Below, piece by piece: positions 51,751 through 60,571 of a stretch of DNA of 64,000 bases (position 1 is the stretch's first letter; each line of letters starts with the position of its first letter). A program made the position numbers and the translations under genes. The notes beneath the pieces were generated by a model. The model saw only the letters and a list, made by a program, of their open reading frames with translations, ran no database searches and was not told the DNA's origin. Location: positions 116,126,001-116,190,000 of the forward strand of contig OZ024741.1 in assembly GCA_964016885.1 (NCBI GenBank), in the 5' to 3' direction. The stretch comes from Eledone cirrhosa (lineage: Eukaryota).

Positions 51751-52132
51751 TATAATGTTGAAATAGTAGTGTATAACTATTAACTAGGAAATTAATCAAA
51801 TTGCATCATCTGACAGATAAAATTTGTCAGCACAGTAATACATGTGTTAATAACTACTAGAGGAAGAAGTGGGGTAATGAGAGCATTGGTGGGATATAGA
51901 GGATGTTCAATATATATATATATATATATATATATATATATATATATATATATATATATATATATATATATGGAGAAAATTATAGTTCACTTGAAGCATT
52001 GTGTAATGAGGTATAAACGTTTGTATATGTATAATAAAGCCAAAACAATGCAGGTATGGACATAGAATAAAGAATGCAAATGCAAAAGATATTGTTGACG
52101 ATTAGTCTTTTACCTTAGATTTATTTAAATGT

Positions 52133-52167
52133 CCTTAATTTTCGAGATAATATCTCTTCCTCGGAGG
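52133..52167 (-). ncRNA. Variant minimal hammerhead motif (U4C) in a short element between TA tracts
   Basis: CCT-CCGAGGA-A-GAGATATTATCTC-GAAA-AT-TA-AGG. Confidence 0.45.
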
Positions 52168-52235
52168 GAAGTAAAGCGGTTAAACCAGTGTTCTAAATAG
52201 CTTGCCAAGTCATATATAATATACATATATATATA

Positions 52236-56122: not shown

Positions 56123-59100
56123 TAAAAACTTATATAGTATGGATTACATATACATATATACATATAAAAACTTATATAGTATGGATTATAAAACCTATCG
56201 AGGCTTCATTTATAATGAACTACATAGGAACTACAAAAAAACAACGCAGAGTAATTTAGATAATATTAATCTGGAGGGGTATAACATAGTGGCAAAACTA
56301 GGTCTGGATAAACACACTCAGCCTTATTACCCCAAGCAGCCTAGATTCACCCTCAAGGACCACAAGGAAGATTTTATTAGCAGACCCTCAGTTAGGCTTA
56401 TCTGCCCCTCCAAGTCTGACCTGGGGATTATTAGTAAGGGAATCTTGGATAGCGTTATTCCCCTGGTTAGAGAAAAAACTTTCCTTGAGCTTTGGGGTAA
56501 CACTAGTGAGGTCATTACGTGGTTCTCTACGGATTGTGGTCGTGACTCACTCAAATTCATCCAATTTGATATTGATGCTTATTATACATCTATATCTCCT
56601 ATTATCCTCAATAAGGCCCTCATCCTAGCCATGCAGAGGGGTGCAATTACAAGGCCACAGATAGATATTGTTCTCGCTGCACGTAAAACCATTATCATGT
56701 TTGAGGATAATCTATGGACGAGAAAAAACACACCTGATAATTTTGACATTACTATGGGGTCGAGTGACTCTGCTCAAGTCACCGACTTAGTTGGGCTATA
56801 CCTCCTCAATGAACTGCATAGTAACTTCCCTTTCCTTAGGGGCGGGTTGTACCGGGATGACGCCCTACTCTCCATAGATACTAGTAAGTATAATATAGTG
56901 CGCATTAGGAAAAAGCTGCATAGTTTTTTAAAACATTTAACCTATCCATTACTATGGATATAAATGATAGAACTGTGAACTTCCTGGATGTTACATTGGA
57001 CTTGGATAACCATACGTACACACCGTACCATAAGCCTAATGAATTGCTGACTTACGTGAATACCAACTCTAACCACCCTAGGTCGGTCATCAGCGGTATA
57101 CTGAAGGGCGTATCTAACAGAATAAGTTCACTCTCACATAGTGAGGAGGCGTTTGACTCGCAGGCTGATTACTATAATGATGCCTTAGCTAGATCCGGCT
57201 TTAGGGACAAATTGTATTACACCCAGGGAAATAATAGTCCTAATAGTAGCTCTACCAGTGTTGTTATAACACATAATATGTCCATTGGTAATGGAGGTGT
57301 CGCGAATGGGAGGGTTCTAAATGCCGGTGGAATGAAGCAGCAGGGCACCATTAGTCTAAGTAATAGCAATGGTAGGCCTCGCAGCTCCCCGCATAGACTA
57401 GGTGAGCATAGGAACCGTAGAAATAATAATGCTAATAATACTGATGGAAATAGAAAGAATAAAAAGAATAGAAGAAGATTGAATACATACTTCAACCCCT
57501 CTTTTAATTCTGAAGTGGCTATAAATATTCCTAGGGCCTTCTTCTCTGTGTTAGAAAGGAACTTCCCTCCTGGTAATAGGTACCACTCTATCCTCAATAA
57601 GAATGTTGTTAAACTTTCGTATTCTACAACCCAAAATCTGGCCTCTCATCTGGCCATTACTAATAATAAGAAAATAAAGGAAGGCCTGGACAACCTAAGC
57701 CTAGGGGAAAACACGGTAGTGGACAGAGTGGGCAGAAACACAAGTGGTGATCATTCTGAGAATAGCATCACCAGAGGTTGTAACTGTAGAAGGGCTTCAG
57801 GCTGCCCCCTGAATGGTTTCTGCCTTGTTAGAAACATAGTTTATGCGTGTGATGTAGTAACTACGGCGTCCACTAAGACCTATATAGGATCTACCTCCAC
57901 CCCCTTTAAGACCAGGTTTAACTCTCACCAATGCACTTTTAGACATAATAAACTGAGGAACTCCACCTCCTTGGCAGCGTACGTCCATAATTTAAAAAAT
58001 GCACGAACACATTACACACTTACTTGGCGGCAGGTTGCTAAATCCCATCCATATACTCCTCATAATAGAGTATGTAACCTATGCCTTGCCGAATCCCACT
58101 CTATTATATTTGCTAAATGCCCTCTACGAAATAGAAAGTCTGAAATATTTTCCTCTTGCCCCCACCGAATATTAAGCTCTTTCTTCTACTTTAAACCTGT
58201 TAGCTAGCACTTCCTTATTCCTCCAGTTGGGCTGTCTTGTGTAACTGTCTCTGATTGTGTGTAACTGTCTCCTATTGTTGGTCGTCTATGTATATGAGTC
58301 GGTGAATGTATACGTATGCCTGTGGGAGGATATTGATCTGGATATTGGGGTGTACAGGTGAGTGGGTGTGTATGTTAATAAGCACCCCTGTTTGGCACAG
58401 CGGATGTAACCCATCCACGCTCGCCTACCCACCATTGGTGCATTGGTGGGTCTATCCTGACGTATATCTTGTGGATCTGTACCTCTGTATGCGCATGAGT
58501 TGTGATGTAATGTATTTATGTAAAGCGTGTACTGCGATTTAGGCTGCACTAATAGAAATTTAGCCTGTAACTGTGGGCGGACCTGTGCCATCCCGCCGTA
58601 AGCAGTGGTTACGTGGCGCATGTACGTGTTGCCCTCATATTCTGTGGTTTAAGATCTACAGGCTGACTTCTGGGAGCTCTTGCCCGGGGTTGTAGTCTTT
58701 CTAGCACGATTGGCCTTCCATATATTGACGGTCGTTGTTATGATCCCGAAAGTAACGTTTTGGCCCCGATAGCCCTCCGTAGTTACTAACGGTCTGTGTA
58801 CACTTGAATCGGGCAATGGCACGTGCGGACACGATTATCTCCGTAGGATTTCAACTTTATTTTACTACATCTCATCGTATGTATTTATTTTGAATGTATT
58901 ATCCGTGGTGGTGGGTCTGGCCTAATGTGGTATTTCGGTGTTTAATATCAGCTTTGACCCGGGTGTCCTACGCTGTGTGTGTGTGCGTGTGTGTCCGTGT
59001 ATACATTTATATGTGTATGGGTATAGGTGGTTGTATATGTCTGTATATAAAAAAATATATATATATATATATATATGTATACCGTCTCTGCATATGCACG

Positions 59101-60571
59101 TGGTGTGTATATGTGCATATACGTGCTGAACATATTGATGTGTACAATCTTGTGATGTCCCAATGCGGTGACTTCATGGCTCTTGAAGCTATTTTTTATA
59201 TATCTTCTGTCTTTTTATATATCTTTTGTATGCGCTCCAACTGTGTCTGCTTGCTTTGGCTAACCCGCCTGCACTTCGCTTGCTAATGCACGTGAATTCT
59301 CCTACCTTCCTTCGATGCACCTCTCTCTGACCATTGGACTCCTGCCCGGGTGTGAACCAGTTTGTGATTACCCCACCGCTCAACTGTGTGAATGCACACC
59401 CGCGACTTTCGAGTGAACTTTTGAGACTGCCCAACCTGGGACGCCTCCATTGCCTTGCAATGGTCAAGTGATACTGGTGACTGTGACACTTAGTGCCTTC
59501 GTGGGCCCCTGATATTTTCAAGAAATATATTTTTAAAAAATGGTCAAGTGATACACATAACTGTGACACTTAGTGCCTTCGTGGGCCCCTGATATATTCA
59601 GGAGATATATTCTAAAAAAATATATATCTTATCTCAATTTACTTTATTTCATTTTATTTTATTTTATTTCATTTCATGTTATCTAATTTTATTTATTTAC
59701 TTATTTAATTCCATTTATTTATTTATTTATTTATTTATTTAAATTTAATTTTAATTTTATTTATTTATTTAATTTTATTTATTTATTTATTCATTTATTT
59801 TATTTAATTACATTTAATTATATCTTATATTATATTATTTTAATTTAGTCTATTTTATTTTATTTTAGTTTACCTTATTTTATCTTATTTTATCTTATTT
59901 TATGATTATATTATATTATGTTCTATTTTATATAATTTTAATTTTAATTTTATATTATTTTATCTCATTCCTTACCCTGTATCACTATTATCTGTATATT
60001 TTATATTTTATATGTAAGTTTGTTATGTATTTCTTTATATTTTCTTATATATATTATAAGTCTGTTTTTCACCTATTTTTTACCTACTCTTACCTAATCC
60101 TATCTATCTTATCTACTCTTGTCTGTTCTCTTATCCATGTGTATGCTTGTATGTAACTATATGTTGACAGCACCCCGCCCAACTGTGACTGATAGCACCC
60201 CTTATTTTTCATTGTTTATTTTATTATCTTATTTTTATTTTTATTTTTATTTTTATTTTTATTTTTATTTTTATTCCTATTTTTATTTTTACTTTTACTT
60301 CCTTAATATCCTTTATCGTCTATTATTATTTTTCATTCTTCAATGTCTTGGATTTGTTATTGCTTGTATGGTATGTAATTAACCTTTATGCTCTGATGAG
60401 TCCCACTTATAGTGCGGATGAAACAATGTTAGCAAGTAAAGATATGCATATGCTATAGGCGTTCTTTGTTATTTATTATATCACGGCTCTGTCCTCAGAC
60501 ATTGAGCTAACCTTATACTGCCTGCTGGATAAGTGGAGTGTTATACACCCCTGATCCTCTCCCTAGTATAC
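56123..60571 (+). mobile_element. Penelope-like retroelement (RT plus GIY-YIG), 5'-truncated, one frameshift near 56930-56960, with a long 3' region ending in a hammerhead
   Basis: RT motifs [35 protein letters not shown]. Linker CNCRRASGCPLNGFC. Endonuclease IVY...TYIGST...FKTRFNSH. Bounded by TA microsatellites. Confidence 0.92.
60389..60434 (+). ncRNA. Type I hammerhead motif, family E, at the 3' end of the PLE
   Basis: TGCT-CTGATGA-GTCCCACTTATAGTGCGGAT-GAAA-CAATG-TT-AGCA. Stem I can be extended by CTTTA/TAAAG. Confidence 0.75.

What the first reader, a model, noticed from the sequence alone, without database searches (positions are those of the whole stretch)
51971..60571. Hot spot of five unrelated hammerhead-bearing elements stacked in TA microsatellites next to a PLE
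Seen: within about 1.8 kb (52.0-53.8 kb) lie four different hammerhead families (52133-52167; family C inverted; family A palindrome; family D inverted), each separated only by short (TA)n runs. A 2.2-kb TA tract and a PLE with a fifth hammerhead follow. Inference: a guild of autonomous and non-autonomous PLE or ribozyme elements that all target (TA)n, with each insertion regenerating the target for the next.
Basis: partly seen in the sequence, partly recalled or inferred. Interest (0 to 1): 0.75.

Follow-up and report, generated by a model that had tools for sequence, protein, structure and literature searches.

The report
Stacked Penelope-element ends in TA repeats
Five ribozyme-shaped RNA motifs sit side by side because four known-type jumping genes (Penelope-like elements) and one short non-coding repeat all end in TA repeats throughout this genome, so the pile-up is likely just the extreme end of a common pattern rather than a special site.

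Summary
Five hammerhead-bearing families lie at the stated places, B, C, A and D separated only by 15-43 nt of TA; the PLE (E) sits in a separate TA array 105 nt further on. Each family has 708-6,079 exact motif copies in the genome. Four of five are not independent ribozyme elements but 5'-truncated, often inverted 3' ends (pLTRs) of autonomous Penelope-like elements: A, D and E of the Hydra clade (known to target (TA)n, known from Octopus), B of a CCHH-type clade. Only C is non-coding: a 421-431-nt tandem monomer like a non-LTR retrozyme. TA targeting is strong (127 of 143 3' ends; 25 of 27 background hammerheads). Stacking is modest: about 2-3 times what TA availability gives, so with roughly 135,000 motifs in the genome a four-element stack is expected. 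Target regeneration beyond simple splitting was not shown. Two-armed copies pair one long and one short fixed 3' end in 64 of 65 cases, matching published two-site initiation. This scan reported the same system several times on other DNA of this genome. Verdict: new members of known kinds.

The parts
51910..51971 (.). (TA)31, left edge of the split TA array
51972..52213 (-). Family B: 5'-truncated 3' end (long end at 51972, 40-nt tail) of a CCHH-type PLE; minimal hammerhead 52133-52167 with CCGAGGA core, 3-bp stem I, AATT palindromic stem III
52214..52229 (.). impure TA spacer between B and C
52230..52604 (-). Family C inverted arm, ending at the short fixed end; hammerhead 52445-52487
52612..53006 (+). 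Family C direct arm, ending at the long fixed end; hammerhead 52697-52739; 421-431-nt tandem monomer without ORF (retrozyme-like)
53007..53021 (.). TA spacer between C and A
53022..53244 (-). Family A inverted arm (short end); hammerhead 53073-53127
53244..53564 (+). Family A direct arm = pLTR of a Hydra-clade PLE (parent in L031), joined to the inverted arm at a native 8-nt palindrome; hammerhead 53363-53417; 97-nt tail to the long end
53565..53607 (.). TA spacer between A and D
53608..53745 (-). Family D: 3' end (long end at 53608, about 70-nt tail) of a third Hydra-type PLE (endonuclease upstream in L223); hammerhead 53693-53745
53745..53806 (+). Family D inverted arm (short end); hammerhead lacks the 5' side of stem I
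53807..53837 (.). TA run, right edge of the split array
53838..53942 (.). 105 nt of non-TA sequence between the stack and the long tract
53943..56166 (.). 2.2-kb impure TA tract at the truncated 5' end of E
56165..58207 (+). Family E ORF (RT + C-terminal GIY-YIG, Hydra clade), 5'-truncated just after the DKT motif and frameshifted by a 1-nt deletion near 56930; 99.5% identical over 1.2 kb to a copy with an 844-aa open frame (L219)
58208..60571 (+). Family E 3' UTR and pLTR; hammerhead 60389-60434; about 90-nt tail to the long end at 60571
60572..61805 (.). 1.2-kb impure TA tract at the 3' end of E
7809..8347 (.). second two-armed family A insertion, same junction, 98% identical
36934..37979 (-). 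family C partial tandem, 431-nt period, 2.4 copies

Best explanation
The region holds the 3' ends of four Penelope-like retrotransposon families and one protein-free 430-nt tandem repeat, all bordered by TA repeats, and they most likely entered one TA microsatellite (E a neighbouring one) in separate target-primed insertions. Shown: identity of each piece, parent ORFs for A, B, D, E, TA at the ends, two fixed 3' ends per family, one long plus one short end per two-armed copy. Inferred: the GIY-YIG endonuclease cuts both strands of a (TA)n run; each cut end primes reverse transcription at one of two internal start sites of the RNA (their distance is the 40-97-nt tail); copying usually stops early, and the two cDNAs are joined head to head, often at short native palindromes. 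The TA run is split, so both flanks stay usable and later insertions can land beside earlier ones. C is likely copied in trans by a PLE enzyme. The hammerheads are passengers of the pLTR, predicted to cleave as dimers; for C they would cut multimeric RNA into monomers.
For: Parents: L031 has pLTR-ORF-pLTR with A as pLTR, motifs RWK, DKT, CNCRNPESC, CKLC..E..N..CRH; E parent 844 aa with RWR, DKT, CNCRRASGC, CNLC..E..N..CPH and no CCHH; D: 12 of 30 position-ordered matches carry a shared upstream UTR and L223 a Hydra-type endonuclease; B parents carry RT and GIY-YIG with C..C and two H. C: no position-ordered match (30 listed, several from the same array) is joined to a longer UTR; most are preceded by C's own 3' end, with an array of at least 17 kb on C1. 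TA at 127 of 143 3' ends; 64 of 65 two-armed copies with both ends at fixed points are long+short, including 13 of 14 for C, whose query did not select for ends. Both arms of an A copy share 17 variant sites against 10 and 23 single-arm ones in 3,725 nt of 21 copies. 5 of 18 short A pairs on C1 have the 260-264-nt spacing of the palindrome junction. Frangieh 2024 (PMC11167929): both strands cut and extended, two RT start sites define the tail, hammerhead dispensable. Craig 2021 (PMC8557442): inverted 5' copies, tails, Hydra clade and Hydra-1_Obim on (TA)n.
Against: No empty-site allele was seen, so order and separateness of the insertions are inferred. No sequence link ties C to any parent, and C lacks the small hairpin found behind 5 of 8 ends. 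The long+short count is partly selected: queries for A, B, D, E included the tail; 8 further two-armed copies had an arm ending elsewhere. Fold-back of one cDNA followed by cleavage would give the same picture. Covariation inside the families is thin: 1-2 compensatory pairs each; C 1 of 500 shuffles, A 21 of 500, D 151 of 500. Frangieh's element is a Poseidon, not a Hydra. Stacking exceeds TA availability about 2-3-fold, which pure independence does not explain.
Confidence: 0.85

Rival explanations
1. Self-seeding hot spot: an insertion makes its flanking TA a better target (expansion, added TA, cruciform or open chromatin from the palindrome), so elements pile up in a chain reaction.
For: The far side of a TA array next to one of the five families carries another family's hammerhead in 13 of 202 (top-hit loci, p=0.08) and 13 of 109 (position-ordered loci, 10 distinct neighbours, p=0.0006) against 34 of 932 background sides. 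Cross-family pairs on C1:1-51.8 Mb: 6 within 3 kb against 1.2 (uniform) or 1.5 (0.5-Mb jitter). Summed flanks have median 102 nt (n=54) against 45 for background arrays.
Against: No pair within 1 kb (0 against 0.5). Flank density 10.6 per 100 kb is close to the TA-anchored control 8.1 (background 4.0). The summed flanks lie below the length-weighted background (median 308), so larger arrays being larger targets can explain the excess.
Confidence: 0.25
2. Accumulation by survival: elements land in TA arrays independently and pile up where selection and deletion are weak, or they hitch along when TA-rich segments are duplicated.
For: Enrichment persists to 10-20 kb (12 against 3.7; 19 against 7.4), a regional rather than junction scale; the window also holds several LINE copies and second A and C copies.
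Against: It fades by 50-100 kb after jitter (p=0.09, 0.16); B-C-A-D was not found together in any other of the fetched loci.
Confidence: 0.3
3. A, C and D are discrete non-autonomous palindromic (MITE-like) or ribozyme elements that move as ready-made units.
For: The same A junction recurs at many loci; 26 of the 30 best D hits are short two-armed units.
Against: These top hits were selected by query bases that came from the junction; position-ordered samples show variable junctions (112-756 nt spacing for A) and long parents for D. Arms of one copy share variants. A 170-nt D 'monomer' rests on one locus.
Confidence: 0.07
4. The motifs are chance matches or assembly artefacts in low-complexity DNA.
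For: Rfam gives no hammerhead hit; B's stem I is only 3 bp.
Against: 0 hits in 1.8 Mb of shuffles; 708-6,079 exact copies per family with 0 for reversed controls; C also lies in reads and contigs of four public runs.
Confidence: 0.01

Closest known systems
Hydra clade of C-terminal EN+ Penelope-like elements, incl. Hydra-1_Obim of Octopus bimaculoides (Craig et al. 2021, PMC8557442; section 11, passages and supplement part 2 of 59 read)
   Same: RWK/RWR, DKT, CxCX5C linker, CxxC and CxH around E and N, no CCHH, 3' hammerhead, (TA)n target, inverted 5'-truncated copies, tail at one end (families A, E; D in part).
   Different: Different hammerhead sequences from the listed Hydra-1_Obim motif; longer units (about 3.5 kb for A, about 5 kb for E against 'generally <3 kb'); tails of 70-97 nt against 30-40; thousands of copies.
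[quoted passage not shown]
   Same: Short stem I, small palindromic helix III, mostly solitary in truncated PLEs, pairs on opposite strands 100-700 bp apart.
   Different: No microsatellite link is mentioned there (0 occurrences of the word); B has a U4-to-C core change and one extra A before stem II.
Metazoan non-LTR retrozymes (Cervera and de la Pena 2020, PMC7229834, passages; Li et al. 2026, 10.64898/2026.07.22.740005, part 1 of 5 and passages)
   Same: Family C: tandem monomer without ORF, type I hammerhead in each unit, GC 36%.
   Different: C is longer (421-431 nt against about 300), has a minimal Hydra-like rather than canonical hammerhead, and its insertions show PLE footprints (TA target, inverted arm, two fixed ends); circular RNA not tested.
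PAc Poseidon element of Anolis (Frangieh et al. 2024, PMC11167929; parts 1-2 of 4 read)
   Same: Two internal RT start sites that define the tail, both strands cut and extended, AT-rich target.
   Different: Poseidon clade; hammerhead overlaps the ORF start; no microsatellite stacking described; primes without homology, whereas the ends here usually continue with TA-like bases.

Membership tests
Hydra-clade PLE (families A, E) | RT plus C-terminal GIY-YIG in one ORF | tested here: met
   844-aa open frame in L219; interrupted but collinear in L031
Hydra-clade PLE (families A, E) | RWK motif and DKT in place of DKG | tested here: met
   A: RMRWKAF, ADKTNN; E: RVRWRAF (R for K), SDKTKN
Hydra-clade PLE (families A, D, E) | CxCX5C linker, no CCHH, CxxC and CxH around E and N | tested here: met
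   A and E meet all; D shows CNC, no CCHH and CNLC..E..N in one broken copy, end of the domain altered
Hydra-clade PLE (family D) | RWK and DKT | not tested
   no copy with the N-terminal region was fetched
Hydra-clade PLE | phylogenetic placement with reference Hydra RTs | not tested
   no reference proteins were on hand; placement rests on motifs
Hydra-clade PLE | hammerhead near the 3' end and (TA)n insertion | tested here: met
   A 27 of 29, D 29 of 29, E 27 of 28 3' ends at TA
Hydra-clade PLE (family B) | absence of CCHH | tested here: not met
   B has two cysteines between VVY and YVG and two downstream histidines; it is a canonical EN+ PLE, clade unresolved (three-cysteine linker that does not fit CX2-5CxxC strictly)
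PLE minimal type I hammerhead | conserved core with three stems and short palindromic helix III | tested here: met
   B with U4 to C in most copies, U in a minority
PLE minimal type I hammerhead | covariation of stems | tested here: inconclusive
   90-97% of cells paired, 1-2 compensatory pairs per family; C 1 of 500, A 21 of 500, D 151 of 500 shuffles; B and E not testable for lack of variants; across the background families stems differ wholly while pairing
PLE minimal type I hammerhead | self-cleavage (as dimer) | not testable with these tools
   needs in vitro assay
Non-LTR retrozyme (family C) | tandem monomers, each with a type I hammerhead, no ORF | tested here: met
Non-LTR retrozyme (family C) | expressed as monomeric linear and circular RNA | not testable with these tools
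   needs RNA data of this species
Non-LTR retrozyme (family D) | tandem monomer without longer parent | tested here: not met
   linker found once in the genome; 12 of 30 matches continue into a PLE 3' UTR

The most novel reading that the evidence does not exclude
PLE insertions seed their own successors: a fresh two-armed insertion leaves flanking TA runs that are hit 2-3 times more often than other TA runs, so several PLE clades and a protein-free retrozyme build self-propagating stacks; and the long+short rule, obeyed also by the non-coding family C, is genomic evidence that both cut strands prime on retrozyme RNA, meaning that a PLE enzyme inserts retrozymes directly.
Probability: 0.25. Interest if true: 0.55.

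Novelty: new member of a known kind. Interest (0 to 1): 0.3.

Why it matters
The locus itself is ordinary for this genome. Its use is as a sample of a very young, very abundant PLE system (family E has at least 27 identical 226-nt ends and a copy with an open 844-aa frame) in which open questions named by Craig 2021 and Frangieh 2024 can be tested: how inverted copies and tails arise, what directs microsatellite targeting, and whether PLE enzymes move retrozymes. An extrapolated 135,000 hammerhead motifs in 3.0 Gb also matter for repeat annotation, since Rfam finds none of them in the window.

Tried and rejected
Rfam at gathering thresholds: no hammerhead. Pfam: no family for either E fragment; the other long ORFs of the window are LINEs (RVT_1, APE, PHD), not parents of A or C. 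D as a 170-nt non-autonomous monomer: proposed from L091, rejected; the top-hit sample was biased by three junction bases in my query. A as a ready-made palindromic unit: rejected. PLE ORFs near C loci L050 and L059 are separate insertions. Sensitive blastn of C against the four parents: nothing beyond 12 nt. Minimum-energy cofolding of hammerhead pairs did not return the catalytic dimer fold consistently and is no test. One search used a mis-registered structure and is void (redone). Sequencing runs: no RNA holder listed, no evidence either way; coded organism names prevent any reading of C's spread. Head-to-head junctions between different families: 1 against 91 within a family, too few to interpret. 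Paper searches returned no paper on stacked PLE ends in TA arrays; the library lacks most subscription journals, and 58 of 59 parts of the Craig supplement and all bioRxiv supplements were not seen.
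Full report
Observation. The stretch 51.9-61.8 kb was read in full. A scan for type I hammerheads (core, three stems) found the five families at the stated places: B 52133-52167(-), C 52445-52487(-) and 52697-52739(+), A 53073-53127(-) and 53363-53417(+), D 53693-53745(-), E 60389-60434(+). The first, stricter version missed B, whose core reads CCGAGGA, listed one weak hit at 15885 that the refined scan dropped, and gave 3 hits in 30 shuffles; the refined scan gave none in three shuffles of 600 kb. Rfam reports only a tRNA-like hit. 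B, C, A and D are separated by 16, 15 and 43 nt of TA, with 62 and 31 nt of TA outside. E lies in another array, behind 105 nt of non-TA sequence and the 2.2-kb tract.

Copy numbers. The window lies on C2 of a 3.0-Gb animal genome; an octopod host is my inference from recalled SINE sequence and from the Hydra-1_Obim entry, not a tool result. Exact 30-32-nt patterns give C 6,079, A 5,920, B 3,155, D 1,920 and E 708 matches, reversed controls 0; arms and tandem units count separately. In 60 random 10-kb stretches (599,679 nt) the scan found 27 motifs, 24 insertions after merging, from many more families. Extrapolated, that is about 135,000 motifs (Poisson range about 89,000-196,000; my arithmetic).

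What each family is. A is the pLTR of an autonomous PLE: L031 shows an inverted 5' fragment, pLTR, RT-GIY-YIG ORF and a second pLTR 3,514 nt on. E is the window's own PLE, 5'-truncated after DKT and frameshifted by one deleted base, 99.5% identical over 1.2 kb to L219, which has an 844-aa open frame. Both carry the Hydra diagnostics given by Craig 2021 (section 11): RWK/RWR, DKT, CxCX5C, CxxC and CxH around E and N, no CCHH. That paper's supplement lists Hydra-1_Obim of Octopus bimaculoides with (TA)n preference and a hammerhead. D first looked like a 170-nt monomer (L091), but its linker occurs once, and 12 of 30 position-ordered matches continue into a shared 3' UTR, one into a Hydra-type endonuclease. 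B continues into RT and a GIY-YIG with the CCHH pattern: a canonical EN+ PLE, not Hydra, clade unresolved. C is preceded by its own 3' end or truncated in all 30 position-ordered matches (several from one array) and forms arrays of at least 17 kb: a non-coding 421-431-nt monomer like the non-LTR retrozymes (PMC7229834; Li 2026). It shows no sequence link to the four parents. The five 3' ends are unrelated as DNA, the A and E proteins 39-57% identical.

TA targeting. Of 143 top-hit loci (150 less 6 window loci and 1 duplicate) 127 have TA directly behind the 3' end: A 27 of 29, B 24 of 29, C 20 of 28, D 29 of 29, E 27 of 28. In the background 25 of 27 motifs lie within 200 nt of (TA)6, against 28% of random points and 11 of 29, 9 of 17 and 17 of 110 copies of three control repeats.

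Clustering. Other-family hammerheads in 432 kb of flanks: 46, or 10.6 per 100 kb, against 4.0 in the background and 8.1 around random TA runs; TA clusters are 2.2 times denser in the flanks; 2 of 144 loci have three other families within 1.5 kb, as the window does. On C1:1-51.8 Mb, where lists for all five patterns are complete, cross-family pairs number 0, 6, 12 and 50 within 1, 3, 10 and 100 kb against 0.5, 1.2, 3.7 and 35.8. Direct stacking across one TA array: 13 of 202 and 13 of 109 (10 distinct neighbours) against 34 of 932 background sides. The excess is real but modest. With about 120,000 insertions and 4-8% per link, some 6-50 four-element chains are expected (rough inference), so this stack is the tail of a genome-wide pattern.

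Target regeneration. TA remains on both sides: in 54 two-armed copies the flanks sum to a median of 102 nt, against 45 for background arrays and 308 when these are weighted by length (flanks are cut at 1.5 kb). Splitting of a long array and growth on insertion cannot be told apart without empty alleles.

Mechanism. Every family has two fixed 3' ends, 40 (B), 56 (C), about 70 (D), 90 (E) and 97 (A) nt apart. Of 65 two-armed copies with both ends at fixed points, 64 pair a long with a short end; 8 more have an arm ending elsewhere. Queries for A, B, D, E selected the long end, the C query did not (13 of 14). The window follows the rule for C, A and D. Arms of one A copy share 17 variant sites against 10 and 23 single-arm ones (21 copies, 3,725 nt), as expected if both come from one template; for C single-arm changes dominate (8 against 49 and 71). 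Junctions vary but recur at short native palindromes (5 of 18 short A pairs; AGCT before D's stem I). Frangieh 2024 showed for a Poseidon element that both strands are cut and extended, that two internal start sites define the tail, and that the hammerhead is dispensable for insertion. Priming from both cut ends at the two sites is therefore the likeliest source of these mirror copies; fold-back of a single cDNA is not excluded. An RCTC..GAGY hairpin lies within about 10 nt behind 5 of 8 ends tested (A both, E both, D short; not C, not D long, whose continuation rests on one locus); this lead came from earlier notes.

Ribozymes. All five fit the minimal PLE hammerhead with a small palindromic helix III (PMC4209133). 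Covariation within families is weak to fair (C 97% paired, 1 of 500 shuffles; A 95%, 21 of 500; D 90%, 151 of 500), since copies are young; activity was not tested.

Verdict. The finding is real and its reading half right. It consists of new members of known kinds: Hydra-clade and canonical PLE ends plus one retrozyme-like monomer, on a target already reported for Hydra elements. The same system was reported several times by this scan on other pieces of this genome; these notes are unchecked and are not counted as support. What this locus adds is the assignment of four families to parents, and a measured 2-3-fold stacking excess of unknown cause. Interest 0.3.

Noticed in passing
L108 (about 1500-2033): Family C and family B joined head to head with a 4-nt overlap and no TA between them, both with long ends outside; 1 such mixed junction against 91 within families. 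Either two different RNAs in one insertion or a deletion between neighbours.
   Followed up: partly
window 193-2488, 5114-7279, 17051-18723, 19771-22845, 42816-46414: Several LINE copies (APE endonuclease, RT) with a PHD finger directly C-terminal to the RT core; the 19771-22845 copy has a 1,024-aa open frame.
   Followed up: no
window 47882-47952: tRNA-like head (Rfam 47.7 bits) inside a dispersed repeat family with several copies in the window, likely a SINE.
   Followed up: no
G000:C1:51772506-51789585: Family C tandem array of at least 17 kb, 2.5 kb from a convergent pair of A hammerheads.
   Followed up: no
window 56120-56190: The first 22 nt of the truncated E copy are duplicated with a TA-type spacer between them, at the junction with the 2.2-kb tract.
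   Followed up: no
L122-L151: Family E, the youngest, has the longest 3' TA arrays (median 111 nt against 27-49 for the others): preference for long arrays or later shrinkage.
   Followed up: partly
background loci L152-L211 and flanks: Many further hammerhead families, the commonest with stem I tattttat/ataaaata and a TATATA or TGCGCA helix III; parents not sought.
   Followed up: no
window 57217-57645 (-): A 142-168-aa antisense frame open across the low-complexity insert of the E ORF in several copies; probably a shadow of the sense frame.
   Followed up: no
runs X4, X6, X9: Near-identical family C pieces lie in contigs of three other coded organisms; relatedness unknown.
   Followed up: partly
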